Below are positions 3,523 to 58,422 of a DNA stretch of 64,000 bases, piece by piece; position 1 is the first letter of the stretch, and each line of letters begins with the position of its first letter. The stretch spans positions 67,757-131,756 of the forward strand of contig JAYWMQ010000043.1 of the NCBI GenBank assembly GCA_035873375.1, given 5' to 3'. The notes beneath the pieces are model-generated. The model made no database searches and was not told the origin of the DNA. It saw only the letters and a program-made list of their open reading frames with translations. The translations under genes were made by a program, and so were the position numbers. The stretch is from Nitrospirota bacterium. Its GTDB lineage: Bacteria > Nitrospirota > Thermodesulfovibrionia > Thermodesulfovibrionales > JdFR-85.

Positions 3523-3744
<222 letters not shown>

Positions 3745-38557: not shown

Positions 38558-38851
38558 ATGAAGAGCCTTGAAGAAATAAAAAAAATTCTTGAGCAACACA
38601 AGTCAATCATTGAAAAACAATTTAAAGTTAGAGAAATTGCCATCTTCGGTTCTTTTGTCAGAGAGGAGCAGAAAGAGATTAGCGATATTGATATACTCGT
38701 TGCGTTTTATGAACCTGTTGGTTTCTTCACATTCCTGGAGCTTGAAGAATATCTGACGGAGATACTCGGAATAAAGGTAGACCTTGTATCAAAAAGGGCT
38801 TTAAAACCCGGAATAGGTAAATATATTCTGCAAGAGATGATACAGGTTTGA
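38558..38851 (+). CDS. mntA: Nucleotidyltransferase antitoxin MntA (type VII TA)
   Basis: 97 aa. FGSFVREEQKEISDIDILV (GSxxR...DxD NTase motif). Overlaps the next gene by 4 nt. Confidence 0.85.
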   Translation: MKSLEEIKKILEQHKSIIEKQFKVREIAIFGSFVREEQKEISDIDILVAFYEPVGFFTFLELEEYLTEILGIKVDLVSKRALKPGIGKYILQEMIQV

Positions 38852-39192
38852 CCGGAAAAGACTACAGAGATTATCTTCAGGACATTCTTGATTCTATTAT
38901 TGAGACTGATGACTTTGTCAGGGGCATGTCATTTGAAAACTTCCTTCTTGACAAGAAAACAGTAAATGCGGTTATAAGAAGCCTTGAGGTCATTGGAGAA
39001 GCATCCAAGAACATTCCTCAGTCTTTGCGAGACCAGCATCCCGATGTTCCGTGGAAGAAAATGGCAGGAATGCGAGATAAGTTTATCCACGAATATTTTG
39101 GAGTTGATTTGGAAGTTTTATGGCAAACGATAAAACAGGATATTCCCCCTGTCAAACCTTTGATTGAAAAAGCCATTAAAGAACTTGAATAA
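38848..39192 (+). CDS. hepT: HEPN/DUF86 toxin HepT
   Basis: 114 aa. MRDKFIHEYFGVDLEVLW contains the Rx4H HEPN motif. Confidence 0.85.
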   Translation: MTGKDYRDYLQDILDSIIETDDFVRGMSFENFLLDKKTVNAVIRSLEVIGEASKNIPQSLRDQHPDVPWKKMAGMRDKFIHEYFGVDLEVLWQTIKQDIPPVKPLIEKAIKELE

Positions 39193-39284
39193 ATCCTGAC
39201 GGGATGCACTGCACTGTACATGATAAGACAATCTGAATACGAACGACAGGGTGGTCAGACTTGACTATCGGTCCTGATGTGATC

Positions 39285-39342
39285 AAGGTGTGCAACTTTA
39301 TTTTCCTGCATGTCAATAGTTTTGCATAGTATGCAACAACGT
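39285..39342 (-). repeat. Copy E3 of an island-specific repeat (core GTTGTTGCA-N5-TGCAAAA...TTGAC)
   Basis: The reverse complement reads cgttgttgcatactatgcaaaactattgacatgcaggaaaataaagttgca, about 80% identical to the + copies at 42066 and 43031. Confidence 0.7.
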
Positions 39343-39466
39343 TTCCGAAGCTTCAAGAAAAATCTATTGTCTCCGCCTGCCTGTTGACTTTTATGGTTTG
39401 ACGTTTTTTTATGGTGATTTTGGTATTATACAGAAAACTGTATACTAACTGGTTATCCAAAAAAAT

Positions 39467-40312
39467 ATGGCGTTATTTGCACTTGATCATAATGGAGATA
39501 GAATTCGAGCCTCTCAAGTAGAAAATAGGAATCTCAACTTTTCGTGTGAAGATTGTGGGAATCCCTTAAGCTTTGTAGATGCTCAATTAAAAGTCAAACA
39601 TTTCAGACATCAGGTGGCTTCTGATTGTGGTGATGAGCCAGAGACCGAAGAACATGAATATTATAAAGATTTAGTTGCTATAAAATTGGAAGAACTAAAA
39701 TTAGGACAAGTATGTCCGGAGTATCTTTTAGGATGCAAACGTGCTGACATATATTTGAAACGCGAAAATAAGCGTGATATAGCTTTTGAAGTACAGGCAA
39801 CAAATTATAGCTTTGCAAAATATGAACAAAAGATTAATTGCTATTCCGCTAGAAGACTTTTAACTGTTTATATATTTATCGGGGATGACTTCTTAAATGA
39901 AGTAAAAAAGAATATCTTCTCATTAAAAGAAATAGAAAAAAAGATATTTCACAACAAGTCATACCGTGATTCTGTTATTGGGTGTTACCTTGATGGAGAG
40001 AATGTAACTCTCCCATCATTTAAACAAAAACATGCAAAAGGAAGCTCTGGATATTGCAGTGATCGATTTATTTTTGACTATAAGAATTTAAAGAAGATGA
40101 CTCTTGATGATTATCTTATTAACGTGCAGGAACATAAGGTTAAAGATGAACATCCATATATATGCGGACATCCAGAATATATAGTTAAAAAATCTGACAA
40201 GAAAATTGAACGATACGGTTGGTTTTGTTCGTGTTGTGGAAAATTCGACAAGTGGCTTTCTAATAAGCAGGCATTATCAATGGGACTTAAATTTAACACA
40301 ATCAATGGCTAA
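39467..40312 (+). CDS. CoiA-like nuclease-fold protein (zinc ribbon plus PD-(D/E)xK-like core)
   Basis: 281 aa. FSCEDCGNPL...KHFRHQVASDCG (CxxC...HFxH...C), EEHEYYK, KRADIYL, AFEVQAT. This is the same motif order as competence protein CoiA. An extra C-terminal CxxC is present (WFCSCCG). Confidence 0.55.
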   Translation: MALFALDHNGDRIRASQVENRNLNFSCEDCGNPLSFVDAQLKVKHFRHQVASDCGDEPETEEHEYYKDLVAIKLEELKLGQVCPEYLLGCKRADIYLKRENKRDIAFEVQATNYSFAKYEQKINCYSARRLLTVYIFIGDDFLNEVKKNIFSLKEIEKKIFHNKSYRDSVIGCYLDGENVTLPSFKQKHAKGSSGYCSDRFIFDYKNLKKMTLDDYLINVQEHKVKDEHPYICGHPEYIVKKSDKKIERYGWFCSCCGKFDKWLSNKQALSMGLKFNTING

Positions 40313-40439
40313 CAACAAAGTGGACTTGAACGAGTACCACAGGACGTTTTTTTAGATAGCTATATTTTAAGACATGCAAATCAGTTTTAGGCATGTTAAT
40401 AAGATTCAGTGGTACTCGTCAGTCACTCAGGCGTTATAC
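40307..40439 (+). repeat. attC-like imperfect palindrome, site 1 (133 bp)
   Basis: The left end GGCTAAC contains the TAA stop and the right end is GTTATAC. Arm agtgGactTgaAcgagtaccac pairs with gtggtactcgtcagtcact, with the unpaired bases on the left arm. The centre is unrelated to site 7 while the ends are conserved. Confidence 0.55.
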
Positions 40440-40450
40440 GCATAAAAAAC

Positions 40451-40972
40451 ATGTGCAACCAACATAGATTAATCACAAATTTAGAAAGAACAGAAATTTC
40501 AGATGCATATTTCGCAATCTTTGGACGGGCACTTACTATTGCCACACGCTTTGATACAGGATGTCGTACCTTGGGAATACTGGTTGGGATAAAGAACGCC
40601 CCTGAGATTCTTGAATCGGAAAAGGTTCTAAAAAAATTTGCTAATAGAATCACCAAGCAAAAATTATGGGATCACATTAACAATTTAACAACAAAGGGTG
40701 CAGAGCCTTGGGATACTCTAAACAAAGCACGAATAGCCAGAAATGAAGTTGCACATGAGATTACACTTGGAATAGATGGACAAATAGACGCTATAACAGA
40801 GAAAATATTAAAAGAAAGAATTGATCGTCTCTACAATCTTTGCCTCTTATTAGCGGAAGGCGATATCTTGGTTGAGGGACTTGCTTCGGAATTAACCGAT
40901 GAAGAGTTGCCAACTATCGATTTTCTGAAAAAATACCCAGAACGTATCGCTAAATGGGTTACTGAAATATAA
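40451..40972 (+). CDS. Hypothetical protein with a HEPN-like Rx4H motif
   Basis: 174 aa from ATG 40451, 12 nt after the GTTATAC core. The track start GTG 40409 lies inside the palindrome. All-helical, with KARIARNEVAHEITLG (R-x4-H). Confidence 0.4.
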   Translation: MCNQHRLITNLERTEISDAYFAIFGRALTIATRFDTGCRTLGILVGIKNAPEILESEKVLKKFANRITKQKLWDHINNLTTKGAEPWDTLNKARIARNEVAHEITLGIDGQIDAITEKILKERIDRLYNLCLLLAEGDILVEGLASELTDEELPTIDFLKKYPERIAKWVTEI

Positions 40973-40980
40973 AAAAAGAC

Positions 40981-41043
40981 GTATAACCATGCTGCTGCAA
41001 GAAACCGCTGAAACTGTGCGGCCTCTGAGCAGCGCTGTTCGAA
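40981..41043 (+). repeat. attC-like imperfect palindrome, site 2 (63 bp)
   Basis: GTATAAC-catGCTGCTgCAaGAaaCCGC-tgaaactgt-GCGGccTCTGAGCAGCgct-GTTCGAA. There are two unpaired bases on the left arm. The left core is the exact complement of the GTTATAC cores of sites 1 and 3. Confidence 0.6.
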
Positions 41044-41068
41044 TTGCAACGAATTTTTATGAATATTT

Positions 41069-41776
41069 ATGAATATTAGAGATAAAGAAAATAACCTTTT
41101 TGAGAAGTGGATGAAAAAAGAAGGCCGAAAGCCATTTATTAAAGATGGTTCACCGTCACCTGATGAATACTCAAAATCTAAAACAAGAATTCTGTTCATT
41201 CTGAAAGATGCGAATTTTGGTATAAATGACGAAGATAAAGAAATTGGAAACTTCGATGATTCCTCTTACGATCAACGAAAGGATTTGGAGAAAAACCCAC
41301 ATGTCTGGTGGAATAGAGTCAGGAATTGGTGTGCTTTCTTACTTAATCCACGTATAGAGTGGGACGAGGTTAAGAAAAAAGATGTTGCTGAATCTTTGGC
41401 CCCATTTTCGTTCATGCAGTTAAAGAAGAACGCTGGTGGTGGGTCTGTAAATGCGGGGACATTGTGGGATGTTGCCAAAGAGGATAGTCTTGAGATAAAG
41501 GAGCAGATTGCTATTTATCACCCTGATTTTATTGTTTGCTGTGGTGTTGGTGAAATAGTTTATAAAATAATATTTTCCGGTAGATCGCCTTTAAATTATA
41601 CCCCGCATGGTGTGGGATATTGGAAGGTTAATAGGGAGGATGATAGTAATAGGAAATATACTTATGTTATCGACTATTGCCATCCGAGTGCGCGATTTGG
41701 GAAAAAGATTGAAGGTGTTGTTGCTTTTGGATTAGTTAATTCTATTAACCACTTAATAAAAAAACGTTATTTTTAA
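41069..41776 (+). CDS. Hypothetical protein (speculative uracil-DNA-glycosylase-like fold)
   Basis: 235 aa. RILFILKDAN near the N-terminus and DYCHPSARFG near the C-terminus recall the positions of UDG-superfamily motifs A and B. No firm match. Confidence 0.3.
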   Translation: MNIRDKENNLFEKWMKKEGRKPFIKDGSPSPDEYSKSKTRILFILKDANFGINDEDKEIGNFDDSSYDQRKDLEKNPHVWWNRVRNWCAFLLNPRIEWDEVKKKDVAESLAPFSFMQLKKNAGGGSVNAGTLWDVAKEDSLEIKEQIAIYHPDFIVCCGVGEIVYKIIFSGRSPLNYTPHGVGYWKVNREDDSNRKYTYVIDYCHPSARFGKKIEGVVAFGLVNSINHLIKKRYF

Positions 41777-41925
41777 ACGTGCATCTAAATACAGAGAGAT
41801 TATTTGCTGACTAAGTGCATGGTTTTACTGAAGGTTTCCTTACAAGGCAAACGCACTCGGATGGTAAAAAGCACCGCTCGTTTTTCAGCTCTGCTTTTTG
41901 CCTCCGTTGATTTATGGCGTTATAC
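41772..41925 (+). repeat. attC-like imperfect palindrome, site 3 (154 bp)
   Basis: The left end TTTAAAC contains the TAA stop and the right end is GGCGTTATAC, identical to site 1. Outer arms are taaacgtgcatctaaataca / tgatttatggcgtta. Inner stem is ggtaaaaagca / tgctttttgcc. Confidence 0.4.
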
Positions 41926-41938
41926 ATGAAGATATAAA

Positions 41939-42106
41939 ATGAAAAACTTAATCTCTTTTGCCGTATTTGTCATAATTCTAACTTTTACCAGTTACTCTCT
42001 ATCATTTTCTATTACTTCAACTCCCAATGCTTTGTCGGAAACACCAAATAACGCAACTTTGGGGATGTTGTTGCACACTATGCAAAACTATTGACGGGTT
42101 AGAAGA
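41939..42106 (+). CDS. Possible 55-aa signal-peptide ORF (below the ORF-track cutoff)
   Basis: Own translation: MKNLISFAVFVIILTFTSYSLSFSITSTPNALSETPNNATLGMLLHTMQNY. It starts 14 nt after the GTTATAC core and its 3' end runs into repeat E1. Confidence 0.3.
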
Positions 42107-42162
42107 AAATAATGTTGATAAAATTGCAGGATTATATCATGCTAAGACAGCCTGGATTAGAC
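42066..42162 (+). repeat. Copy E1 of the island-specific ~95-nt repeat
   Basis: tgttgttgcacactatgcaaaactattgacgggttagaagaaaataatgttgataaaattgcaggattatatcatgctaagacagcctggattagac. About 85% identical to E2. Confidence 0.8.
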
Positions 42163-42402
42163 CTGAGAAGGGTTTTCAATATCATTACCTGCTCTCCCGG
42201 AACAAGAAACGATATGCAATATCTTTATAAGGATAGACCGTAAGATCGAATCCGAACAAAACAAACTCTCATCCCTTAAATCACTCTTTCAGAACCTCAT
42301 AACATGAAAGGTCAGGTTAAGGTTAAGGACATTAATGCATGATATATGGTAAAATGGTATATATAATCAGCACGTATTATTGTGCATAAATGGAGGATGA
42401 AT

Positions 42403-42609
42403 ATGCGTACGACAATTGATATAAATGAAGACCTCATTAATGAGGTTATGAAAAAGGCTGGAGTAAAGACCAAGAAAGAGGCAATTGTAACGGCCATGAA
42501 GGCTTATCTGAGATTCAAAAAAATTGAGGAACTGAAAGAACTGGTCGGTAATTACGACGCCTTCGATCTGACATTAAGCGACCTGAAGAAGATGCGGGAT
42601 GAAAGATAG
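42403..42609 (+). CDS. vapB: VapB-type (DUF2191-like) antitoxin
   Basis: MRTTIDINEDLINEVMKKAGVKTKKEAIVTAMKAYL. GGAGGA lies 6 nt upstream of ATG 42403, so this start is preferred over the track start at 42382. Confidence 0.8.
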   Translation: MRTTIDINEDLINEVMKKAGVKTKKEAIVTAMKAYLRFKKIEELKELVGNYDAFDLTLSDLKKMRDER

Positions 42610-43006
42610 GGTTCTGATAGATACATCCGCCTGGATAGTCAGTTTCAGGAAATCGGGTAATGAGAAGCTGAAACAGCAAGTTGTGGCTGCCCTGAATTCC
42701 CTGTCAGCGGTAACAACAAATATCATCACCATGGAACTTCTTCAGGGGTGTCGCGATGACATGGAATATAAAAAAATGCGGTCAAGGCTGGAGGCACTTG
42801 AGCTGATGCCTCTTAACGAAGACGTTTGGGAGATGGGTTACAGTGCGGGGTATAGCCTCAGGAAGAAAGGCATTACGGTTCCATCGGTGGATATAATAAT
42901 CGCCTCTCTTGCTAAAGCGCATGACTGCACGCTCCTTCATCACGACAGGCATTTTAAACTGATAGCAAGGCATCTCGATATAAAGACGGTCGACTTTTTG
43001 AGTTAA
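42599..43006 (+). CDS. vapC: PIN-domain toxin VapC
   Basis: 135 aa. VLIDTSAWI (Asp), TMELLQG (Glu), PSVDIIIA, LLHHDRHF. Overlaps vapB by 11 nt. Confidence 0.88.
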   Translation: MKDRVLIDTSAWIVSFRKSGNEKLKQQVVAALNSLSAVTTNIITMELLQGCRDDMEYKKMRSRLEALELMPLNEDVWEMGYSAGYSLRKKGITVPSVDIIIASLAKAHDCTLLHHDRHFKLIARHLDIKTVDFLS

Positions 43007-43030
43007 CAGACAGATTATAGAATGGGTGAC

Positions 43031-43124
43031 ATTGTTGCACACTATGCAAAATTCTTGACGGGCAAGAAAATAAAGTTGATAAAGTTGTAGGATTTATATC
43101 ATGCTATGACAGCCAGGATTAGAC
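43031..43124 (+). repeat. Copy E2 of the island-specific repeat
   Basis: attgttgcacactatgcaaaattcttgacgggcaagaaaataaagttgataaagttgtaggatttatatcatgctatgacagccaggattagac. Confidence 0.8.
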
Positions 43125-43178
43125 GTATCAGGAGCCTCGCACACGTCCAATTGCACGAAGGGAGGAACTCATAAAAAG

Positions 43179-43206
43179 TACAAGTTATGCATTGTATGCA
43201 ACAACG
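43179..43206 (-). repeat. Partial inverted copy E4, forming a ~30-bp inverted repeat with the start of E2
   Basis: gtacaagttatgcattgtatgcaacaacg is the near-complement of 43031-43066. Confidence 0.7.
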
Positions 43207-43284
43207 TTCCTGACTTATATTATAGTCTGTGCCTGGGCTGGCTTAGCACATCGTTAGGCATCTATAAAATCGGGGTTCCATAGA

Positions 43285-44241
43285 TTGAAAATAATATATT
43301 TAGATCAGCTTCATTGGATTGAAATTGCTAAACATATAAATGGTAACCATACGAAAGAAGGAACCGATGAAGCGCTCAATCACATATTAGGGTTAAGTAA
43401 AAAGGATATTGCTATTTTTCCTTTATCAATTTCTCACTATTATGAAACTCTAAAACAATCTGATCCAGGAAGGCGACAACGACTCGCTCAAGTTATGAGG
43501 CAACTTTCCCGTGGGTACACAGTTAGTGCACTAAGGAATATCGTTAATTCTGAAATTGAGTTGGCATTAGTAGCTATGTTCAGTTTAAATCACGAAGTGC
43601 TCCCTGTTTCATACATAGGTAAAGGCTTTGAACATACCTTTGGACGATCTCTAAACATGAGGTTAGAATGGCCAAATCCAGAGAAAGTGCCGGAAGATAT
43701 AAAACAAAAAATAGAAAATGATATTTTTGAAGTTGCGGAAAATGCCTTACTAAGCGGTGTGATAAAGGGTTCATCTGTGGAGCATCTATTTCCTAAAATG
43801 GATTTATCTGCAGATATTAAGTTTTGTGATCACCTTATGACGTGGAAGGGATGTGCTTCATCCGCCACTGAGGAAGAATTGAGTCGGCAAATCTACGCAA
43901 TTACATATCAAGATATATTTGATTCCATTTTTTCAAAAACCGTTGAGCTGGGGATTTCTACAGAACAATTTGTAGGTATTGGAGAAGAAGGGATGAAGAG
44001 GCTTATTGATATGATGCCCACCCGGAAAGTAGATATGTGGTTGAGAGACCAATGGGCCAGAAATGGAGGGTTAATACCCAAAAAATCCGACTTGAATGAT
44101 TGGTGCTATGTGGGGGCTGCAATCCCATATTGTGATTTTGTGGTAACAGAAAACCAAATGGATGATCTGTTATCCAGATCAGCAGAATATAAGTCTAAAG
44201 TTACATCAGAGCTTTCAGACTTGATTGGAAAATATGCCTAA
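43285..44241 (+). CDS. Hypothetical protein
   Basis: 318 aa with a TTG start 26 nt after the GTTAGGC core (43253-43259). The N-terminal IIYLDQLHW and C-terminal YCDFVVTENQ are faintly PIN-like. No firm motif. Confidence 0.55.
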   Translation: MKIIYLDQLHWIEIAKHINGNHTKEGTDEALNHILGLSKKDIAIFPLSISHYYETLKQSDPGRRQRLAQVMRQLSRGYTVSALRNIVNSEIELALVAMFSLNHEVLPVSYIGKGFEHTFGRSLNMRLEWPNPEKVPEDIKQKIENDIFEVAENALLSGVIKGSSVEHLFPKMDLSADIKFCDHLMTWKGCASSATEEELSRQIYAITYQDIFDSIFSKTVELGISTEQFVGIGEEGMKRLIDMMPTRKVDMWLRDQWARNGGLIPKKSDLNDWCYVGAAIPYCDFVVTENQMDDLLSRSAEYKSKVTSELSDLIGKYA

Positions 44242-44280
44242 CAATGCAAATTCAGCCGAGCCAATACCGTGCCGTTAGAA
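44236..44280 (+). repeat. attC-like core pair, site 5 (short, weak stem)
   Basis: GCCTAAC (a perfect RYYYAAC containing the TAA stop), 31 nt, then GTTAGAA. Arm pairing is poor and the length is below that of typical attC sites. Confidence 0.3.
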
Positions 44281-44300
44281 GCAAATAAAACAAAAGAGAC

Positions 44301-44669
44301 ATGATGGATCTGGATAATATAGTTGAAATAAGGGTATTAGGCCCCCAAGGGAAATATTATATAGATTTGGAAAAGGAATTTTCCCTACAATTTGAAGAAC
44401 AAGGGGCATATTTTATGATATCCCGTTTGTTTTCTGCTCCTCCAGAAACAACAGTGATGATTACAATAGGGATAGGAGTAATTACTGGAGTGACAACCCA
44501 TGTTCTGGCTAAGCTAATTGATAAAATATTTGATCTAAAGAAACGAGATGGTCAGGAAAACACGAATGTAACTATCAGCCTCCACATTGGAGACAAATAT
44601 GTGAACTTGCCAAGTGATAAAGAAGAAATGTTGAAAAAAATAAATGAGTATCGGAAGGATCAAGAGTAA
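44301..44669 (+). CDS. Small single-TM membrane protein
   Basis: 122 aa with a central hydrophobic helix TVMITIGIGVITGVTTHVLAKLI. Starts 21 nt after GTTAGAA. Confidence 0.55.
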   Translation: MMDLDNIVEIRVLGPQGKYYIDLEKEFSLQFEEQGAYFMISRLFSAPPETTVMITIGIGVITGVTTHVLAKLIDKIFDLKKRDGQENTNVTISLHIGDKYVNLPSDKEEMLKKINEYRKDQE

Positions 44670-44681
44670 GATGAATAAAGC

Positions 44682-44762
44682 TTCTAACAACAGCTTCAAC
44701 ATGGACGGCAAAAAGCTGTGGTGCGTTCCGTATTTTGCCGATAGTTAAGTTGGACGTTGTGT
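44682..44762 (+). repeat. attC-like imperfect palindrome, site 6
   Basis: Left end TTCTAACAAC...; right ends GTTAAGT (44744) and GTTGTGT (44756). Outer arms are ttctaacaacagcttcaac / gttggacgttgtgtaagaa. Inner stem is cggcaaaa / ttttgccg. Confidence 0.35.
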
Positions 44763-44803
44763 AAGAATAAATTAAGCTTATATAAAATTATGGGGAGAGG
44801 AAA

Positions 44804-46225
44804 ATGGACAAAAAACTAACAAAAATTGTTGGCCTGAAAAAAGATGACTTTGATGAATTTATTTCAAGTGGAGAGCTGAAACTAAGGAAAGCTCGATTAC
44901 TTCCATTTTTCAAGCCTGGGGATGAAATGGCTTTGACATCGGTAATATTATCTTCAATAAGATTGATAAATGAGTTTAGAAAAAAAATATTCTCTGACTG
45001 TAAATTGATGGGTGGCGGTCAGATATACGTTTTCACAGAAGTGTCTTTTCCTCAGTTTCCAGAATATAGAGTAGATGGCCTGTTGCTAATTGTTAAGAGC
45101 GGGATAATTAAAGATGCCGCAATATTTGAGATGAAGAATGGGAACGATATACTCAATAAAGAACAAATCGAGCACTATCAAGAAGTTGCTAAAGCATATT
45201 CAATTCCAAAGCTTGTAACAATTTCAAATCAATTTGTTTCTGAACCAACACAATGTCCTGTAAACATTAAAACTATAAAGAACGTTGATATATTTCATTT
45301 CTCTTGGTCTTATCTTTTAACTATAGCTCATGTGTTGTTATTCAAAAATGACGCTAATATCGAAGATGCGGATCAGGTTGAAATAATGCGTGAAGTTGTG
45401 AACTACTTGGAATATGATAAATCAGGAGTTTTTGGTTTAAACCATATGAAAGCAGGTTGGAGCGAAACCATTGAGAAAATAAATGCTGGTGCCAACCTTA
45501 AAATTAATGATCCTTATGTATGTGATGCTGTTTATAGTTGGCAACAAGAAGAAAAAGATATGGCATTAATTTTAAGCCGGCATCTCGGAGTATTAGTTGA
45601 CTCAGGTGAGACGAAGTATAAAAGTAATTTAAAGGCAAGACTGGAAGATGATAAAAAATCCTTAATCAACAAAAAACAGCTTGTATCTACGCTGCGAGTT
45701 AAGGATGCTGTATCTGATATTAAGATTATGGGTTTGTTAGAAAAAAGAAGTGTTGAGATGTTCGTAAGCCTAAAAGCACCACATGACAAAACATTAAGGG
45801 GACAGTTGGGATGGATCAAACGTCAGATTGAAAATTGTAAGAAAAAGAATGAAGCCATTTTTGAGAAACTCAAAAAAGGAGTATTAATTGAGACCAAAAT
45901 TAAAAACAGTCACAAAGCTGAGCGGATGAGTATTCTAAATTTTGATGAAATGATAGATATCCTTAAAAACAAAGAAATCAAAGAATTTAAAATTGTTCTC
46001 ATAAAAGATTTCGGCAAACAATTTGCATCATCTAAGAAATTTGTTGAGCTAATAGAACACATGCTAATTGATTTTTATAGTGGCATTATTCAGTATCTGT
46101 ATAAGTGGGAGCCTTCAGCACCTAAACTGATTCAGCCAATTGAGGCAGGAGATCCAGCTGTTATTGAGAAGCCAACACGAGAAGTTATTGAAGGTGGTAA
46201 GGAATTAAAAGAAATTAAAACATAA
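44804..46225 (+). CDS. RecB/Cas4-family PD-(D/E)xK nuclease domain fused to a ~300-aa uncharacterised Lys-rich C-terminal region
   Basis: 473 aa. GDEMALTS (Glu), RVDGLLLI (Asp), IFEMKNG (ExK), KEQIEHY (QxxxY), in the canonical RecB-nuclease order. GGAGAGG lies upstream of the ATG. Confidence 0.55.
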   Translation: MDKKLTKIVGLKKDDFDEFISSGELKLRKARLLPFFKPGDEMALTSVILSSIRLINEFRKKIFSDCKLMGGGQIYVFTEVSFPQFPEYRVDGLLLIVKSGIIKDAAIFEMKNGNDILNKEQIEHYQEVAKAYSIPKLVTISNQFVSEPTQCPVNIKTIKNVDIFHFSWSYLLTIAHVLLFKNDANIEDADQVEIMREVVNYLEYDKSGVFGLNHMKAGWSETIEKINAGANLKINDPYVCDAVYSWQQEEKDMALILSRHLGVLVDSGETKYKSNLKARLEDDKKSLINKKQLVSTLRVKDAVSDIKIMGLLEKRSVEMFVSLKAPHDKTLRGQLGWIKRQIENCKKKNEAIFEKLKKGVLIETKIKNSHKAERMSILNFDEMIDILKNKEIKEFKIVLIKDFGKQFASSKKFVELIEHMLIDFYSGIIQYLYKWEPSAPKLIQPIEAGDPAVIEKPTREVIEGGKELKEIKT

Positions 46226-46344
46226 TAATGGAATGGACTTGAACAGGTTATCTCAGCTCCCTTTTTCAAGTCGATCATAGTTCATTTTTTTATTTTTTGT
46301 TACTGTTTTCAAAGAAACGCTTGTCAGTCATTCAGGCGTTAGGC
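46221..46344 (+). repeat. attC-like imperfect palindrome, site 7 (124 bp)
   Basis: Left arm aatgGactTgaAc and right arm gtcagtcatt with GGCGTTAGGC (a perfect GTTRRRY). The ends are homologous to site 1 and the centre is unrelated. Confidence 0.55.
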
Positions 46345-46376
46345 GTATGAATAACCAAATATGAAAGAGGCTGAAA

Positions 46377-46511
46377 ATGGCGTTTAATAACTTAAAGATA
46401 ACATGTGTGAAAGTCGAAGGCAAATGTAGCCGAACAAAAGTGGGAACAACCTTCTACGTAAGAAATGCAAAATTGGAAATCCCTCCAGGGGAAAGCATTT
46501 ATAATGATTGA
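46377..46511 (+). pseudogene. 44-codon fragment resembling the N-terminus of small Cys-containing TIGR04076-type proteins
   Basis: Own translation: MAFNNLKITCVKVEGKCSRTKVGTTFYVRNAKLEIPPGESIYND*. AGAGG RBS present. It stops where full-length relatives continue, and it overlaps the hicB-like start. Confidence 0.3.
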
Positions 46512-46749
46512 GTTAGAATACTCATTAATAATCGAGGCAACAGAAGAACCTGACTATTTTGGGTTTTATTCTCCGGACCTGGAAGGTTTTTCAGGGATAG
46601 GACATTCTATTGAAGATTGTATCTATAAGGCAAAATGGGGAATGAAGGAACATGTTCAGCTGTTAAAAGAACAAGGCTTGCCAGTCCCTCCGCCGAATCC
46701 CAATCCCAGGATAATTATTCAAAACGAAGAGAAGTTAACAGTTGCATAG
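46504..46749 (+). CDS. hicB: HicB-like antitoxin-fold protein (UPF0150), no HicA partner
   Basis: MIELEYSLIIEATEEPDYFGFYSPDLEGFSGIGHSIEDCIYKAKWGMKEHVQLLKEQGLPVPPP. The internal Met at 46504 is preferred over the track start at 46465. Confidence 0.65.
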   Translation: MIELEYSLIIEATEEPDYFGFYSPDLEGFSGIGHSIEDCIYKAKWGMKEHVQLLKEQGLPVPPPNPNPRIIIQNEEKLTVA

Positions 46750-46840
46750 TTTAAAAAGAAAAATGACCGTCCCACATCGATCGAATTCCCCATCGGCTTT
46801 TGTTAAGCGGTGGTTAAACGATAGTTAAACGCAAACTACA

Positions 46841-46879
46841 AAAGGGCATTGGTTTGCTGTAAACGAACCAATGCCCTTT
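46841..46879 (-). terminator. Rho-independent terminator of the NuoG-like operon (14-bp perfect stem)
   Basis: AAAGGGCATTGGTT-tgctgtaaacg-AACCAATGCCCTTT. On the minus strand it is followed by TTTTGT. Lies 28 nt after the stop at 46907. Confidence 0.75.
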
Positions 46880-46906
46880 CGCGATCCTGTTTGATTTTAA
46901 AACCCC

Positions 46907-54145: not shown

Positions 54146-55219
54146 ATGAAAACCGACAGCGGCTTTAAACTAAAAAACTTTGCCAGAACATTGAATGCAG
54201 CAATCCAGTTCAACCTTTTCAATAAAAGGAATCTGATCAAGGTTGGACACAGGATAACCCACAAGTGTAACTACAAGTGTTCCTACTGTTCAGTCTGGAA
54301 TGACAAGACTGAGGAACTGAATACCGATCAGATTCTGAAACTCGTTGATGAAGTAGCTGAAGCGGGTTGTGTGGCCTATGCCGTAACCGGAGGTGAGCCC
54401 CTTGTAAGAAAAGACCTTCCGCAAATCCTGAAGCGGATAAAGGAGAGGGGTATGGTAGCCAAACTTGTCACAAACGGTTCTCTTGTATCAAAGAGAATTG
54501 ACGAGATAGCGGATCACGTGGACGTTTTGACTTTCTCGTTTGACACCACAAACCCGAACGTTCCTGAAGACATGGGAATAATAAAGGTTCTGAATGATAC
54601 CGTGATAGAGGGGATAAAGGCAGCCGTGGGGAGGATTCCGCACGTTGGATTTAATACAATTCTGACAAGGATTACATATGATGAACTTGACGACATAGTG
54701 GAAATCGCTACAAGGCTGGGGATAAAATCGCTTACGTTCTCTCCTTTGCTGACACATTTTGATTACAGGAGTCCGGAGGAGTACTCCAGGCGCTACGGTG
54801 AGGTGTACGGCAGTATCGAGCATTACAGGAAGACGATAACAAAACTGAGGGAGTTGCGGGATAAGGGTTATCCGGTGATGATGAGCGATCTGCTGCTTGA
54901 TGCAATGTACACGTTTAAAGTGCCAAAGATGAAGTGTATAGCGATTTATCTGCAGTGCAGCATATCCCCGGATGGAAGACTGGGGCCATGCTTCGAGTTT
55001 TCCAGGGAGCTCACTGATTCTTACAAGAATAAAAATTTCAAGGAACTTTGGGAAGAGCTTGGGAGTTACAAAGCCTTTTCAGATAACTGCAAGGGATGCC
55101 TATTACACTGTTACTTCGAGCCAAGCGCAATATTTTCAGGTAAACCCAAGGCAATTTTTTCACGCGGTTCGTACAGAACAAGGTATTTAAATGCCCTTTT
55201 CAACCGGAAAGAATCCTGA
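54146..55219 (+). CDS. Radical SAM protein with a SPASM/twitch-like Cys-rich C-terminus
   Basis: 357 aa. CNYKCSYCSVW (Cx3Cx2C), GGEPLV; C-terminal C...CSISPDGRLGPC and CKGCLLHC. Confidence 0.85.
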   Translation: MKTDSGFKLKNFARTLNAAIQFNLFNKRNLIKVGHRITHKCNYKCSYCSVWNDKTEELNTDQILKLVDEVAEAGCVAYAVTGGEPLVRKDLPQILKRIKERGMVAKLVTNGSLVSKRIDEIADHVDVLTFSFDTTNPNVPEDMGIIKVLNDTVIEGIKAAVGRIPHVGFNTILTRITYDELDDIVEIATRLGIKSLTFSPLLTHFDYRSPEEYSRRYGEVYGSIEHYRKTITKLRELRDKGYPVMMSDLLLDAMYTFKVPKMKCIAIYLQCSISPDGRLGPCFEFSRELTDSYKNKNFKELWEELGSYKAFSDNCKGCLLHCYFEPSAIFSGKPKAIFSRGSYRTRYLNALFNRKES

Positions 55220-55267
55220 AAAAAACGAGAACTCTGAACCCGGTTGTCACTGGAGCCGGGGCTATGT

Positions 55268-55347
55268 CTGTATTTCGCAGTCTACCATAATCGCAGAGGA
55301 GCTAAGCCGTATATGTTTTTCACAAGCTTCATGTGTTTGAGATGAAC
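55268..55347 (-). pseudogene. Decayed copy of the 3' end of the Dabb gene
   Basis: About 80-85% nucleotide identity to 57551-57631. The minus-strand translation ...PVHLKHMKLVKNIYGL compares with LVHPKHMEVVKNIRRL in the intact gene, but the copy is frame-disrupted and lacks the 5' part. Confidence 0.6.
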
Positions 55348-55427
55348 CGGAAAAGTAATTGCCGTATCCGGTCCCTTTTCTTTAATTTAAACGTAAATTT
55401 AAACGTAATTATTTTTTTATCTACACT

Positions 55428-57353
55428 ATGAAACAGGGCAAAAATATAAAGTTTTTACTCCTGCTTGCAGTATTTGTTCTTGGTGTTTCTCTTGGTTTGT
55501 TTTTCTGGGATAAGATAACCCTTCCGTATTCAAACCCTTGGGGTGTCACGGGGGTGCTTACTGTTGCAGAGTATAATCCTACCAATGATTCGGTCAGGTT
55601 TGCTGTCTTCTTATTCATGCCTTTACTGGTGCTCTTCCTGATGTACCTTCTGAACATAGGTGGTTTAAACCGTATCTGTTTTAGGGAGAACTCGGATTTT
55701 TCTGAACATGATTCCCTAGATGTTTTACCGTTACCGTCAATGAATAAAAAAATCTTTGCGGTAATCCTGTTGTTTTTTGCAGTTATATCCGCAGTTAATA
55801 TTCCGAACTACCGTTCTACCGGGAAATTCGATGCAATGCACGAAGGCGAGACTCTGGGGCCTGCCCTGTCGTATATGGCCGGGGAGGTTCCATATAAGGA
55901 TTTCTTGTTTCTGCACGGTGTTTTTGAGAATCCTGTCCGTTCAGTGGTGGCCTTTAAACTTTTCGGGAAGTCAATTGGTTCGGTCAGGGCTCTTGAGTCT
56001 ATCCTTAAAGCTTTTTTATTCGTATTGCTTGCCATTTTCCTGATGCAGATATTCCGTGGCAATTATCTGTACTACCTTTTTGTTTTCCTGACTCTGACCC
56101 TTTTCTATAAACACCTTTTTGGTCTTCCAAGAAGATTAATCTTTTTTAAATCCATGGATATAACCACGTTTTCATTTCTGCTAACCATTCCTGTACTGTA
56201 CCGTTTTTCGGACCTGAAACAGATTAATCCGAAGAAATTCCTGATAAGCGTTTTTTTCTTTTCTTTTATTCCTCTGGCTTCGTTCGGTTATGCTGCTGAC
56301 AGGGGAATTTATCTGTTTGTGACCTATCTGATTGTATCCCCAATTTTATACTTTGTCTTCTTTCACAAAAGTCCTTTGAGACGTCATTATCTGGCAGCTT
56401 CATTCCTTGGGCTTCTGGCGGCGGTTCTGTTGTTGAATGTCCTGTTCCGCGGAGCTTTTTACGATTTTTTTGAATTTACTTTTCTGACCTTGACTAAGTA
56501 TAGGGAGTTACAGGGTGGTTTAATCTATCCTATTGAACAGATAGCTTATTTGGCGGTTTGTGTCCTTATAGCAGCAAATACTTTTTGGGTTGCCTATAAA
56601 TTCCTGCAGGAGTTGTATCTGAATGACGGGAAAGTCAGGCCTGCGTTCAGAGAGTTCATTCGGAAGTATTTTATAGAATTCTGTTTGTTACTGATGTCGA
56701 TATTCTTCTACAAGAGTGCTTTGGGGCGTTCTGACTGGATGCACGTTGCCTACAGTTCTCCCCTGACTTACATACTGTCCTTGTATATCCTGATAAAACA
56801 TTATCTGCACGGTTTTCTTCAGAGAGAAAGATTCAACGCATTCAGGAAGGTTCTCGTGTATGCAATCACTTTTATAGTTGTTGTAAGTTCTGTAGGTGGT
56901 ATTTACAGGATATATAAAAAAGATTTGATTACAAAGCGGTTTCCGGTTAAAGTGGAAGACTCTGAATTTATTCTTGATAAATATAAGGCAACTATAACAT
57001 TTCTGAAAAATAATCTTAAGGATGATGAAAAGTTTTTTACTTTTACAAATGAGGCAAGCTGGTATTATTTTATTGACCAGCCGGCACCGACGCGGTTCCC
57101 GACGTTGTTGTACGCTATGCCGTATTTTTATCAGGAGGAAGTGGTTGAAGATTTAAAGAAGGCAAATATCAGGTATGTCCTCTATACAAACAGTGACTGG
57201 TATAATTCTGTCAGTGGTTTTAACTTTGAAGGCTTTTCCAATGAAGTCAGGTTTCCTATAGTCCTGGATTATCTCAAAAAGAACTTTGTTTTTTATAGGA
57301 TGATTGACGACAATGAAATCTGGATCAGAAAGTCTGAACAGAATAAAAATTGA
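55428..57353 (+). CDS. Large polytopic membrane protein (about 14 TM) with a soluble C-terminal domain; function unknown
   Basis: 641 aa, hydrophobic and Phe/Leu-rich for ~480 aa, then a ~150 aa hydrophilic tail. AT-rich codon usage. Confidence 0.6.
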   Translation: MKQGKNIKFLLLLAVFVLGVSLGLFFWDKITLPYSNPWGVTGVLTVAEYNPTNDSVRFAVFLFMPLLVLFLMYLLNIGGLNRICFRENSDFSEHDSLDVLPLPSMNKKIFAVILLFFAVISAVNIPNYRSTGKFDAMHEGETLGPALSYMAGEVPYKDFLFLHGVFENPVRSVVAFKLFGKSIGSVRALESILKAFLFVLLAIFLMQIFRGNYLYYLFVFLTLTLFYKHLFGLPRRLIFFKSMDITTFSFLLTIPVLYRFSDLKQINPKKFLISVFFFSFIPLASFGYAADRGIYLFVTYLIVSPILYFVFFHKSPLRRHYLAASFLGLLAAVLLLNVLFRGAFYDFFEFTFLTLTKYRELQGGLIYPIEQIAYLAVCVLIAANTFWVAYKFLQELYLNDGKVRPAFREFIRKYFIEFCLLLMSIFFYKSALGRSDWMHVAYSSPLTYILSLYILIKHYLHGFLQRERFNAFRKVLVYAITFIVVVSSVGGIYRIYKKDLITKRFPVKVEDSEFILDKYKATITFLKNNLKDDEKFFTFTNEASWYYFIDQPAPTRFPTLLYAMPYFYQEEVVEDLKKANIRYVLYTNSDWYNSVSGFNFEGFSNEVRFPIVLDYLKKNFVFYRMIDDNEIWIRKSEQNKN

Positions 57354-57550
57354 TGTAATCGGGAATTGAGCCCCGGATTCAGCGACAAAAACAGAGTTGA
57401 GAAGACTCTCTGTAAAGTAAATAACACACTTGTCATGCTGAAGTTATTCAGGTATATACTAATAAAAAGACAACTGGATACGAAGCCATGAAAGAAGTTT
57501 GAAGCAAGTTCGGAGTGACATTCATAGAGCTTTCAGACAGGCTCCGGTTT

Positions 57551-57844
57551 CTATATTTCGTAATCTACCTTGGCTACAGAGGCGCAAAGCCGTCTGATAT
57601 TTTTTACAACCTCCATGTGTTTGGGATGAACGAGATACTGTTGCAGGTGTTCAAGCGAATCGAACGTAGAGTCAAGGACAATGTCATATGATCTATCGGA
57701 AGGCAATACATCGAGAGCTACCACGCATTCTTTCATAATACCTTCTGTTGTTTTCTTCAGGCCCCGTAAATCTTTGACAAGCTGCTGGCGGTCTTCATCT
57801 GATGCCTCAGGTTTCAGTTTGAAAAGTACGATATGTTTTAACAT
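57551..57844 (-). CDS. Dabb (stress-responsive alpha/beta-barrel) domain protein
   Basis: 97 aa. MLKHIVLFKLKPEASDEDRQQL...LVHPKHMEVV. Confidence 0.8.
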   Translation of the reverse strand: MLKHIVLFKLKPEASDEDRQQLVKDLRGLKKTTEGIMKECVVALDVLPSDRSYDIVLDSTFDSLEHLQQYLVHPKHMEVVKNIRRLCASVAKVDYEI

Positions 57845-57993
57845 CTCCGCTCCTTTCGGGAAGTTCTTCCAGTGTTATCAGTACTATAGTGTGTTTTAAA
57901 AACTTATTATAACACTTTTAATGATGATATTTACGCATCAGATCTTTAGCCGCATGGTAGAGATAAAGTTCTTTATGTTAAAATAACAATATT

Positions 57994-58422
57994 ATGGAAG
58001 AAGTCGGCATTGTAGAGAGTGTTGAGGGGGTAATTGCAAAGGTTCTTGTTGAGCGCAAGAGTGCCTGTGACAAGTGTAGCGTGGGCATATGTCACGGTTC
58101 TTCCGATGACGGGGCACTTATAGAGGCCCTCAATATCGCCAAGGCAAAAGAGGGTCAGAAGGTCAAGGTTGTATTTAAGTCCTATACATATCTGAAGGGT
58201 ACAATCCTTATTTATGGTCTCCCGGCACTTGCGCTCATAATCGGAGCGGTACTTGGCAAGGAGTTCCTTCCCCGCATCTTTAGTGGAGTTGATCCTGACC
58301 TGCTTTCTGCTGTTGGTGGATTCGGTCTCTTTATTTTGACCTTCATTGCTGCCAGACTATTCAGTCTGAGGATGGAGAAAAATACGGAATATAAACCCGT
58401 TGTCGAAGAGATACTCGAGTAA
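57994..58422 (+). CDS. RseC/MucC-family membrane protein
   Basis: 142 aa. GIVESVEGVIAKVLVERKSACDKCSVGIC followed by two TM helices. Confidence 0.7.
   Translation: MEEVGIVESVEGVIAKVLVERKSACDKCSVGICHGSSDDGALIEALNIAKAKEGQKVKVVFKSYTYLKGTILIYGLPALALIIGAVLGKEFLPRIFSGVDPDLLSAVGGFGLFILTFIAARLFSLRMEKNTEYKPVVEEILE

What the first reader, a model, noticed from the sequence alone, without database searches (positions are those of the whole stretch)
39193..46840. Integron-like gene-cassette array with no integrase in view (CALIN-like)
Every ORF in this stretch is on the + strand, short and functionally unrelated to its neighbours. They include CoiA-like, HEPN-like, VapBC, a RecB-like nuclease and an orphan HicB.

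Each ORF is followed by an imperfect palindrome.
- The left end reads like an inverse core RYYYAAC. Four times it embeds the TAA stop: GGCTAAC 40307, TTTAAAC 41772, AGTTAAC 43001, GCCTAAC 44236. GTATAAC at 40981 is a fifth left end.
- The right end reads like a core GTTRRRY: GTTATAC 40433 and 41919, GTTCGAA 41037, GTTAGGC 43253 and 46338, GTTAGAA 44274.
- The next ORF starts 12-35 nt after that core.

In the three best sites (40307-40439, 40981-41043, 46221-46344) the unpaired bases all lie on the left arm, as expected for attC strand selection. Sites 1 and 7 share conserved ends but have unrelated centres, as in VCR-type attC families.

The region is visibly more AT-rich than the flanks. No tyrosine recombinase or attI is present. 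TA modules and nuclease-type cassettes are typical of sedentary chromosomal arrays and of recently described cassette-borne anti-phage genes.
Basis: partly seen in the sequence, partly recalled or inferred. Interest (0 to 1): 0.78.

Follow-up and report, generated by a model that had tools for sequence, protein, structure and literature searches.

The report
Integrase-less integron cassette array (CALIN)
This 8-kb AT-rich stretch of a Nitrospirota genome is a genuine but partly decayed integron gene-cassette array with no integrase nearby, which is a well-known kind of element and mainly of interest for the uncharacterised, possibly defensive genes it carries.

Summary
Window 39.45-46.8 kb is a co-oriented array of about 8 gene cassettes separated by attC-type sites.

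- **attC architecture.** Two sites (S1 40307-40439, S7 46220-46344) belong to a 125-141-nt family that also punctuates same-strand ORF arrays in other metagenomic genomes. The family has TAAC/GTTA ends and a 6+6-nt unpaired spacer. Its 13-bp stem has 11 covarying pairs. Three bulged bases sit at positions 16/20/24 of the R''-L'' arm, as in VCR2 and attCoxa2.
- **Cassette boundary rule.** Each cassette's inverse core is complementary to the core at its own 5' boundary, matching 21/28 variable positions. Only 4 of 5040 permutations do as well. Related arrays give 59/68.
- **Independent copy.** A second copy of cassette 7 in another contig begins to align exactly at the predicted GTT boundary.
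- **No integrase.** No tyrosine recombinase is encoded anywhere in the 64-kb window. Two relatives (88% NuoG identity) lack the array next to nuoG.
- **Decay.** Several sites are degenerate: S4, S5, S7 and the missing last attC.

This is a CALIN, a new member of a known kind. No cassette protein inside the array matches a known defence family. One is a widely spread PD-(D/E)xK-like protein.

The parts
38558..39192 (+). MNT (NTP_transf_2) and HepT toxin-antitoxin pair. It lies inside the low-GC island, but no attC follows it, so its membership of the array is uncertain.
   Evidence: Pfam PF01909 E=2e-14 and PF01934 E=1e-30. GC drops at about 38.5 kb. 39186-39460 folds no better than shuffles.
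39452..39458 (+). Core-type site GTTATCC at the 5' boundary of cassette 1. It sits 9 nt before the ATG, and no recognisable attC or attI lies upstream.
   Evidence: Its reverse complement GGATAAC matches the inverse core of cassette 1 (GGCTAAC) at 6 of 7 positions.
39467..40312 (+). Cassette 1 ORF, a 281-aa CoiA-like nuclease-domain protein.
   Evidence: PF06054 E=2e-6. No PADLOC or NCBIfam hit.
40307..40439 (+). attC S1 (133 nt). R'' is GGCTAAC and R' is GTTATAC. It has three bulges on the R''-L'' arm and a 10-bp extension of the stem.
   Evidence: Hits to both covariance models built here: first model R1 E=1e-29, iterated model R2 E=4e-26. DNA fold z=-3.9. Close homologues exist in L014, L030 and L035.
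40453..40972 (+). Cassette 2 ORF, weakly HEPN-like. The mechanical ORF starts at GTG 40409 inside S1; ATG 40453 is the likelier start.
   Evidence: PF18730 E=0.004, below the cut-off. Sequence read.
40981..41043 (+). attC S2 (63 nt). R'' is GTATAAC and R' is GTTCGAA. The bottom strand forms a hairpin with a bulged A and a 2x1 interior loop.
   Evidence: R'' is exactly the reverse complement of the upstream R' GTTATAC, extending to 8 nt. Bottom-strand fold is -12.6 kcal/mol, z=-2.1, with two G-T pairs that would be A-C mismatches on the top strand. Not hit by the family model.
41069..41776 (+). Cassette 3 ORF, 235 aa, no family match.
   Evidence: No Pfam, NCBIfam, PADLOC or PDB match.
41772..41925 (+). 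attC-like site S3 (154 nt). R'' is TTTAAAC and R' is GTTATAC. It is a weak site.
   Evidence: The ends pair in the minimum-energy fold of both strands. R'' matches the upstream R' complement at 5 of 7 positions. The iterated model R2 touches only the right part, E=4. Fold z=-1.8.
41939..42381 (+). Irregular segment. It holds a 51-aa ORF (41939-42094), repeat-family copy 42057-42162, and a mini-site TCATAAC-N12-GTTAAGG (42307-42332) that may be an internally deleted attC.
   Evidence: The deleted-attC reading of the mini-site is inference.
42382..43006 (+). vapB-vapC toxin-antitoxin cassette with its own promoter-like site at 42339-42367.
   Evidence: PF09957 E=4e-14 and PF01850 E=6e-12. It is preceded by the best promoter match in the region.
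43001..43259 (+). Site S4 (259 nt). R'' is AGTTAAC and R' is GTTAGGC. It is composite, containing repeat-family copies 43025-43124 (+) and 43183-43213 (-).
   Evidence: It does not fold as one hairpin and the family model does not hit it. Its R' GTTAGGC is the exact complement of the next cassette's R''.
43285..44241 (+). Cassette 5 ORF, 318 aa, no family match.
44236..44280 (+). Site S5 (45 nt). R'' is GCCTAAC and R' is GTTAGAA. It is shorter than known attCs and folds poorly, so it is probably a truncated attC.
   Evidence: R'' matches the upstream R' complement over 9 nt. Iterated model R2 hit 44236-44288, E=0.86. Fold z=0.14.
44301..44669 (+). Cassette 6 ORF, 122 aa, no family match.
44682..44762 (+). 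attC S6 (81 nt). R'' is TTCTAAC and R' is GTTGTGT.
   Evidence: Iterated model R2 hit E=0.0038. R'' matches the upstream R' complement over 9 nt. Homology of cassette 7 to L039 starts exactly at 44756, the G of its R'.
44804..46225 (+). Cassette 7 ORF, 473 aa, with an N-terminal PD-(D/E)xK-like domain. The family is conserved at 53-90% identity across many lineages.
   Evidence: Invariant D91, E109 and K111. AF2 pLDDT 85. The best Foldseek hits are restriction-type nucleases, but weak. Distribution.
46220..46344 (+). attC S7 (125 nt). R'' is ACATAAT, with the AAC triplet mutated to AAT, and R' is GTTAGGC. It belongs to the same family as S1, in the second subfamily, and has a mismatch in the stem.
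   Evidence: First model R1 E=4e-32, iterated model R2 E=2e-20. The L039 copy of this cassette has the intact pair GTTATGT / ACATAAC.
46377..46749 (+). Last cassette: a 44-aa ORF and a 94-aa HicB-like ORF, with no recognisable attC downstream.
   Evidence: PF15919 E=5e-4, below the cut-off. Sequence read.
46841..46880 (.). GC-rich hairpin (terminator-like) downstream of the convergent nuoG gene. It marks the right edge of the AT-rich island.
   Evidence: Fold (a 15-bp stem in the centroid structure, 17 pairs in the minimum-energy fold). GC rises from 47 kb.
39293..39350 (-). Copy of the second repeat family (core TTGCATAGTATGCAACAACGTT). Unexplained.

Best explanation
The stretch is a cluster of integron gene cassettes lacking an integron integrase (a CALIN) in the chromosome of a Nitrospirota MAG.

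Each unit is a mostly promoterless ORF, or a toxin-antitoxin pair with its own promoter, followed by an attC site. As single-stranded DNA, the bottom strand of an attC folds into a hairpin. The hairpin has a TAAC/GTTA R box, an unpaired central spacer, an L stem with extrahelical bases on the R''-L'' arm, and a variable terminal loop.

An integron integrase, not encoded here, inserted the cassettes one at a time by recombining that folded strand at G|TT. This step is inferred. That is why each cassette's inverse core is complementary to the core left at its own 5' boundary.

With no integrase in cis the array is now static and decaying. S5 is truncated, S4 has been invaded or rearranged, S7 has point mutations in the AAC triplet and the stem, and the last attC is lost.

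- **Shown here:** the attC structure with covariation, the boundary rule, cassette mobility between contexts, and the absence of an integrase within 39 kb to the left and 17 kb to the right.
- **Inferred:** that IntI made the array, that it is currently inactive, and what the cassettes do. Nucleases, HEPN and TA modules suggest stabilisation and possibly defence.
For: **Composition and gene layout**
- AT-rich island with co-oriented ORFs.

**attC family structure**
- The consensus structure is TAAC/GTTA, a 6+6-nt spacer, and a 13-bp stem with three single-base bulges on the 5' arm of the top strand.
- 97% of cells are paired, 11 of 13 stem pairs show compensatory changes, and 0 of 500 shuffles reach the observed values. 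Slid controls give 17-55% pairing.
- The bulges sit at positions 16/17, 20/21 and 24 with a 6-bp stem between first and last, and the sites are 125-141 nt long. This matches the published description of three-EHB attCs such as VCR2 and attCoxa2 (PMC5027507).

**Model hits**
- In the window: S1, S7 and S6 are hit, with weak hits at S5 and S3, and 10 of 11 hits lie inside the array.
- In related loci: 34 sites, all on the ORF strand and between ORFs.

**Boundary rule**
- Window: 21/28 variable positions match, and 4 of 5040 permutations do as well. Pairing with a site's own downstream core gives 9/28.
- Related arrays: 59/68 against 35/68.

**Natural mobility**
- Homology of cassette 7 to L039 starts at 44756, the G of the S6 core, and ends in the R'' of S7.
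- L007 and L034 share an ORF plus its attC at 96.5% identity, and the similarity stops right after GTTA.

**Absences and context**
- No tyrosine recombinase in the window.
- No + strand intrinsic terminators after the ORFs.
- Two 88%-NuoG relatives lack the array next to nuoG.
- CALINs are defined and common, including in Nitrospira (PMC4889954 and PMC9024848).
Against: - IntegronFinder's own attC model could not be run. My models were built from this family, so they say little about S2, S3 and S4.
- Only three sites are statistically significant with the model, and S1 and S6 are 4.2 kb apart. Clustering under the 4-kb rule therefore depends on the weaker sites being accepted.
- S5 is shorter than any described attC and S4 is longer (published range 57-141 bp).
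- The first extrahelical base is C on the bottom strand, where G is usual.
- I chose S0 (39452) knowing what complement to expect.
- No attI, no Pc promoter and no terminal attC are identifiable.
- Whether the genome has an intI elsewhere is unknown, because the source contig could not be retrieved.
Confidence: 0.9

Rival explanations
1. The array is not a relic. It is a live satellite array serviced in trans by an integron integrase encoded elsewhere in the same genome, so cassettes here still excise and reinsert.
For: S1, S2 and S6 look structurally intact. About half of all CALINs lie in replicons that also encode IntI, and IntI can insert cassettes at secondary sites (PMC4889954; abstract of bioRxiv 10.1101/2022.09.11.507474). 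The window covers only 64 kb of a 145-kb contig of a MAG.
Against: Several sites are degenerate. S7 has AAT in place of AAC and a stem mismatch, whereas the L039 copy is intact. S5 is truncated to 45 nt, S4 is composite, and the last attC is missing. No integrase was found next to any of the 15 related loci with this attC family.
Confidence: 0.25
2. It is an ordinary horizontally acquired genomic or defence island. Its intergenic palindromes are transcription terminators or REP-like elements, not recombination sites.
For: The island is AT-rich and carries TA modules and nuclease-like genes. Some sites (S4, S5) fold poorly.
Against: The palindromes lack T-tracts, and no + strand terminator follows any ORF. 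The family has conserved TAAC/GTTA ends, an asymmetric set of bulges and covariation. The boundary-complementarity rule and the exact GTT homology breakpoints are not expected for terminators or REPs.
Confidence: 0.03
3. The cassettes are moved by a non-integron recombinase, for example the tyrosine recombinase that abuts the related array in L014.
For: In L014 a divergent tyrosine recombinase starts about 90 nt from an attC-like site. Its best NCBIfam and PDB matches are integron integrases.
Against: It scores 182 bits against the TIGR02249 cut-off of 265 and lacks about 33 residues of the IntI-specific insertion when aligned to VchIntIA. The N-terminus of an IS91-family transposase follows it directly (PF14319, E=6e-9). 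Its family is very large and sits mostly on 1-4-kb contigs, which is typical of an insertion sequence. No such gene is in the window or in the other loci.
Confidence: 0.03

Closest known systems
CALIN (cluster of attC sites lacking integron-integrase; Cury et al. 2016, Neron et al. 2022)
   Same: It has several same-strand attC sites separating co-oriented, mostly unannotated ORFs, and no IntI or intI pseudogene nearby. It has about 7 sites, against averages of 5-6 per CALIN. CALINs have been proposed to be degraded integrons, and they were already reported in the phylum Nitrospira.
   Different: It was identified here with a home-made family model and boundary logic, not with IntegronFinder. 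Some sites fall outside the usual length range. An unrelated repeat family is interleaved with the cassettes.
Sedentary chromosomal integrons with homogeneous attC families, e.g. the Vibrio cholerae superintegron and its VCRs
   Same: The attC type is 125-141 nt with three extrahelical bases at positions 16/20/24 and a 6-nt spacer, like VCR2 (133 bp). The family recurs in long arrays of small unknown ORFs, for example 8 sites in 7 kb of L020. The array carries TA cassettes (VapBC, HicB-like) (PMC5027507).
   Different: It has no integrase, attI or Pc promoter. It holds only about 8 cassettes. Its attCs are heterogeneous, with only 2 of 7 from the long family. The first extrahelical base is C rather than G. 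The host is Nitrospirota rather than Gammaproteobacteria.
Mobile (class 1-5) integrons
   Same: The cassette grammar is the same: an ORF plus attC, a crossover at G|TT, and short attCs such as S2 (63 nt).
   Different: It is chromosomal and flanked by housekeeping genes. It has no resistance genes, no transposon context and no integrase.
Cassette-borne anti-phage systems in integrons (bioRxiv 10.1101/2024.07.02.601686)
   Same: The cassettes encode nuclease-like proteins (CoiA-like, PD-(D/E)xK, PIN), a weak HEPN match and TA modules.
   Different: No cassette protein inside the array matches PADLOC. A defence role was not tested.

Membership tests
integron attC site | Imperfect palindrome bounded by the inverse core RYYYAAC (R'') and the core GTTRRRY (R'), with the AAC/GTT triplets conserved | tested here: met
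   All seven sites have AAC...GTT ends except S7, whose R'' reads AAT. TAAC/GTTA is 97.8% paired across 34 family members.
integron attC site | The folded single strand has an R box, an unpaired central spacer of 5-6 nt per arm, an L box and a variable terminal structure | tested here: met
   This is the RNAalifold consensus of 17 sites. Covariation: 11 of 13 stem pairs compensatory, 0 of 500 shuffles. It is met for S1, S7 and S6, approximately for S2 (shorter spacer) and S3, and not for S4 and S5.
integron attC site | Two or three extrahelical bases on the R''-L'' arm (opposite the cleaved AAC on the bottom strand) at about positions 16, 20 and 24, with a 6-bp stem between first and last | tested here: met
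   The bulges are at alignment columns 24, 27 and 31, which correspond to positions 16/17, 20/21 and 24, all on the R''-L'' arm. Criteria are from PMC5027507. The bottom-strand identities are C, A, T rather than the usual G, N, T.
integron attC site | Length 57-141 bp | tested here: inconclusive
   S1 is 133 nt, S2 63, S6 81 and S7 125, all within range. S3 (154), S4 (259) and S5 (45) are outside it.
integron attC site | Detected by IntegronFinder's attC covariance model | not testable with these tools
   The model is not in Rfam (0 hits) and the program is not available here. Surrogate family models were used instead.
integron attC site | Recombined by an integron integrase as a folded bottom strand | not testable with these tools
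   This needs a conjugation or in-vitro assay.
integron gene cassette | The crossover is at G|TT, so a cassette's R'' is complementary to the core at its own 5' boundary rather than to the one after its attC | tested here: met
   Window: 21/28 against 9/28, with 4 of 5040 permutations as good. Related arrays: 59/68 against 35/68.
integron gene cassette | The same cassette occurs in different contexts, with homology breaking at the core sites and the attC travelling with the upstream ORF | tested here: met
   Window versus L039: homology spans 44756-46228. L007 versus L034: the ORF plus attC are shared, and the break follows GTTA.
CALIN | At least 2 attC sites on one strand, each less than 4 kb from the next | tested here: met
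   S6 and S7 are 1.5 kb apart and both significant. S1 joins the cluster only through S2-S5.
CALIN | No integron integrase or intI pseudogene within 4-10 kb | tested here: met
complete integron | An IntI with the integron-specific additional domain, plus attI and a Pc promoter next to the array | tested here: not met
   No recombinase in the window. No attI-like or significantly folded region upstream of cassette 1. Promoter-like sites are not enriched.

The most novel reading that the evidence does not exclude
One or more of the unannotated cassettes are new single-gene anti-phage or anti-plasmid effectors that spread both as integron cassettes and as cargo of other mobile elements. The main candidate is the 473-aa protein with an invariant D...ExK nuclease motif. 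Its family is 53-90% identical across Nitrospirota, Actinomycetia, WOR-3, Gammaproteobacteria, Spirochaetes and a Heimdallarchaeota MAG. It also occurs beside SNase genes on integrase-bearing islands. A second, less likely novelty is that the TTGCA-N5-TGCAA repeat family is an undescribed element that targets attC sites.
Probability: 0.25. Interest if true: 0.55.

Novelty: new member of a known kind. Interest (0 to 1): 0.35.

Why it matters
It adds a well-documented cassette array to a phylum where complete-genome surveys have reported few integron elements (two CALINs in one Nitrospira genome, PMC9024848).

It also defines a VCR-like attC family with three extrahelical bases. That family is shared by MAGs labelled Nitrospirota-related, Thermodesulfobacteriota and 'uncultured' from subsurface or hydrothermal-type samples. 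The family could be used to fish out the cognate integron and its cassette pool.

The practical value lies in the cassettes. Several compact, uncharacterised nuclease-like genes are candidates for defence or addiction functions.

It does not change what is known about how integrons work.

Tried and rejected
- **Rfam.** Gathering mode on the whole window and E-value mode on 38.4-47 kb gave nothing relevant.
- **Source contig.** Exact-protein look-ups of window proteins, and of the 100%-identical NuoG representative, found no record. The rest of the source contig could therefore not be read.
- **Genome-wide pattern scan.** It returned 25 hits, about what chance predicts for an 18-mer by my estimate (roughly 35). 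Only 4 were true homologues.
- **L014 as a complete integron.** I first read L014 this way, because a divergent tyrosine recombinase abuts the array and GTTATCTG lies upstream of cassette 1. I rejected the reading because the recombinase lacks the IntI insertion, scores below the TIGR02249 cut-off, and is part of an IS91-type element.
- **An attC after HepT.** I tested whether 39186-39460 is a long attC belonging to the MNT/HepT pair. It folds no better than shuffles.
- **Strand asymmetry.** Top-strand and bottom-strand minimum free energies showed no consistent difference.
- **Synteny.** Comparison with two relatives could not define exact insertion junctions, because the genes beyond nuoG differ in each genome.
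- **Unknown cassette proteins.** PADLOC, NCBIfam, Pfam (E up to 5) and PDB sequence searches gave nothing for them.

Full report
**1. The observation**

The region is real as described. GC falls to 0.34-0.41 between 39 and 47 kb, against about 0.44-0.53 on either side. At finer scale the drop begins at about 38.5 kb, just after a Toprim-domain gene, so the MNT/HepT pair at 38558-39192 also lies in the island.

All substantial ORFs from 39467 to 46749 are on the + strand. Pfam gives the following:
- a CoiA-like nuclease domain for 39467-40312;
- a sub-threshold HEPN match for 40409-40972;
- VapB and PIN for 42382-43006;
- a sub-threshold HicB-like match for 46465-46749.

Four ORFs (235, 318, 122 and 473 aa) match nothing in Pfam, NCBIfam, PADLOC or PDB sequences.

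**2. Are the palindromes attC sites?**

*The S1/S7 family.* S1 (40307-40439) and S7 (46220-46344) share their ends: GGACTTGAAC on the left and GTCAGTCAYTCAGGCGTTA on the right.
- A genome-collection scan for the right end gave 25 hits, about the number I estimate chance would give. Four had the whole element: L007, L012, L014 and L020.
- A two-arm pattern found 11 more in metagenomes.

*Consensus structure.* The 17 sequences align to a consensus structure with these parts:
- TAAC paired with GTTA;
- 6 unpaired bases on each arm;
- a 13-bp stem in which three single bases are bulged, all on the 5' (R''-L'') arm of the top strand.

*Model search in related loci.* A covariance model from this alignment found 34 sites in the related loci. 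Every site is on the same strand as the ORFs and lies between ORFs. L020, for example, has 8 sites in 7 kb.

*Covariation.* On those 34 sites 97% of cells pair and 11 of 13 stem pairs show compensatory changes. No shuffle out of 500 reaches the observed values, and sliding the partners drops pairing to 17-55%. The alignment was fitted to the model, which favours the structure. The slid controls and the two or three distinct stem sequences seen make the covariation convincing all the same.

[quoted passage not shown] The spacer is 6 nt and the sites are 125-141 nt long. Nivina et al. 2016 describe this architecture for three-EHB attCs (PMC5027507):
- VCR2 is 133 bp with G16, T20 and T24;
- attCoxa2 has G16, A20 and T24;
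- a 6-bp stem is required between the first and last EHB;
- the UCS is 5-6 nt.

Here the bottom-strand identities are C, A and T, so only the first base differs from the usual G. The bulges lie on the arm opposite the cleaved AAC of the bottom strand. The bottom strand would therefore be the recombined one, and the ORFs have the canonical orientation.

*Model search in the window.* The iterated model was run without filters on the whole 64-kb window.

| Site | Coordinates hit | E-value |
|---|---|---|
| S1 | 40307-40447 | 4e-26 |
| S7 | 46220-46352 | 2e-20 |
| S5 | 44236-44288 | 0.86 |
| S3, right end only | 41837-41933 | 4 |

Ten of the 11 hits (E up to 10) lie inside the array. S2 and S4 are not hit.

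*The remaining sites.*
- S2 (63 nt) is a good bottom-strand hairpin with a bulge on the R''-L'' arm. It has two G-T pairs that would be A-C mismatches on the top strand.
- S5 (45 nt) folds no better than shuffles.
- S4 (259 nt) is composite.
- None of the sites looks like an intrinsic terminator, and no + strand terminator follows any ORF.

**3. The boundary rule**

Integron cassettes are exchanged at G|TT of the core. In an array, the inverse core of a cassette's own attC is therefore complementary to the core at that cassette's 5' boundary, and not to the core at the end of its own attC.

*In the window*:
- Cassettes 2, 5 and 6 match perfectly, and the match extends to 8, 9 and 9 nt.
- Cassette 1 matches at 6 of 7 positions. 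Cassettes 3 and 7 match at 5 of 7, and cassette 4 at 4 of 7.
- Over the four variable positions the total is 21/28. Only 4 of 5040 permutations of the partners reach that score, and those include equivalents caused by duplicated cores.
- Pairing each R'' with its own downstream core gives 9/28, below the random mean of 11.9.
- One caveat applies. I located S0 (39452) knowing the expected complement. S6 was first flagged by an unbiased repeat search.

*In the related arrays* the sites come from the model alone. The rule gives 59/68, with 13 of 17 cassettes perfect, against 35/68 for the own-core control. The failures occur where two ORFs lie between detected sites.

**4. Natural experiments on mobility**

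*Cassette 7.* The 473-aa ORF has an 87.6%-identical DNA homologue in L039 and L040.
- The alignment starts at window 44756, exactly the G of the S6 core GTTGTGT. It ends at 46228, inside the R'' of S7.
- In L039 the flanking genes differ.
- In L039 the gene is followed by a diverged attC of the same family (E=2.6e-16).
- L039 carries the perfectly complementary pair GTTATGT / ACATAAC. The window copy has GTTGTGT / ACATAAT, one transition in each. This is evidence of decay in the window.

*L007 and L034.* They share an ORF plus its attC at 96.5% identity. The similarity ends right after GTTA of the core and begins right after the GTT of the upstream core. The attC therefore travels with the upstream ORF and the crossover is at the core, as in canonical integrons.

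**5. Integrase and context**

*No integrase in the window.* No tyrosine recombinase is encoded anywhere in it.

*The one recombinase near a related array.* The only recombinase near any related array is in L014. I rejected it as an integron integrase for these reasons:
- it scores 182 bits against the TIGR02249 cut-off of 265;
- aligned to VchIntIA (2A3V), it lacks about 33 residues in the IntI-specific region;
- it is followed directly by the N-terminus of an IS91-family transposase (PF14319);
- its family is huge and sits mostly on 1-4-kb contigs.

*Host and relatives.* The host is a Nitrospirota MAG (100%-identity representatives). Two relatives with 88% identical NuoG have no array and no model hits next to nuoG. 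The genes beyond nuoG differ in each genome, so exact junctions cannot be drawn.

**6. What it is and how it works**

The best explanation is a CALIN: cassettes assembled by an integron integrase, now without one in cis.

Signs of decay:
- S7 carries point mutations;
- S5 is truncated;
- S4 is composite;
- a possible internally deleted mini-site lies at 42307-42332;
- the HicB-like cassette has no attC after it.

*Expression* is inferred. The vapBC cassette has the best promoter-like site in the region (42339-42367). The other cassettes would depend on read-through.

*Other readings.* A trans-acting integrase elsewhere in the genome is not excluded; about half of CALINs share a replicon with IntI (PMC4889954). 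Terminator or REP explanations, and a non-IntI recombinase, are very unlikely.

**7. Cassette content**

The 473-aa protein family is conserved at 53-90% identity across several phyla, including an archaeal MAG.
- It has invariant D91, E109 and K111.
- It gives a confident model, pLDDT 85.
- Its best, though weak, Foldseek matches are restriction-type PD-(D/E)xK nucleases: EcoT38I, McrC, Can2 and BamHI.
- It also occurs outside integrons, beside SNase genes on an integrase/primase island (L042, L043) and next to an HxsD/radical-SAM cluster (L041).

This fits a mobile defence-type gene, but that role is untested. PADLOC has no match for any cassette protein inside the array.

**8. Novelty**

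CALINs are defined and common. Two were already reported in Candidatus Nitrospira inopinata (PMC9024848). This is a new member of a known kind. The attC family and the cassette genes are the useful by-products.

Noticed in passing
window 39293-39350 (-), 42057-42162 (+), 43025-43124 (+), 43183-43213 (-): A second repeat family has the palindromic core TTGCATAGTRTGCAACAA, with four copies where chance predicts none. Two copies of about 100 nt are direct repeats bracketing vapBC, and two copies lie inside site S4. The family is absent from all 38 loci fetched by then and has no Rfam match. It could be a second attC type, a MITE or an operator module.
   Followed up: partly
L014 1-1250: An IS91-family element, made of a tyrosine recombinase plus a transposase with the Zn_Tnp_IS91 domain, abuts a related attC array. 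The recombinase's best matches are integron integrases, but it lacks the IntI-specific insertion. It could easily be mistaken for an intI.
   Followed up: yes
window 44804-46225; L039-L043: The 473-aa PD-(D/E)xK-like protein family has no Pfam domain and is 53-90% identical across bacterial phyla and a Heimdallarchaeota MAG. It occurs as an integron cassette, on an integrase/primase island beside an SNase gene, and next to an HxsD/radical-SAM cluster.
   Followed up: partly
window 38558-39192: The MNT/HepT toxin-antitoxin pair lies inside the low-GC island, but no attC follows it. The MNT matches the PADLOC candidate family PDC-S09 (E=2e-29).
   Followed up: partly
window 42307-42332: The mini-site TCATAAC-N12-GTTAAGG upstream of the vapBC promoter looks like an attC that has lost its interior.
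   Followed up: no
window 41069-41776: The 235-aa cassette protein has no database match. By eye it carries a C-terminal 'CHPSARFG' motif reminiscent of motif B of uracil-DNA glycosylases. This was not tested.
   Followed up: no
window 3001-5000 and 55001-58000: Two other patches of lowered GC (0.38-0.42) lie in the window. The attC family model finds nothing there, and they were not examined otherwise.
   Followed up: no
L007, L012, L014, L020, L026-L036: The same attC family occurs in MAGs labelled Thermodesulfobacteriota, 'Bacterium BMS3Bbin08' and 'BMS3Bbin09', and an uncultured bacterium. This suggests either a shared cassette pool across lineages or binning noise.
   Followed up: no
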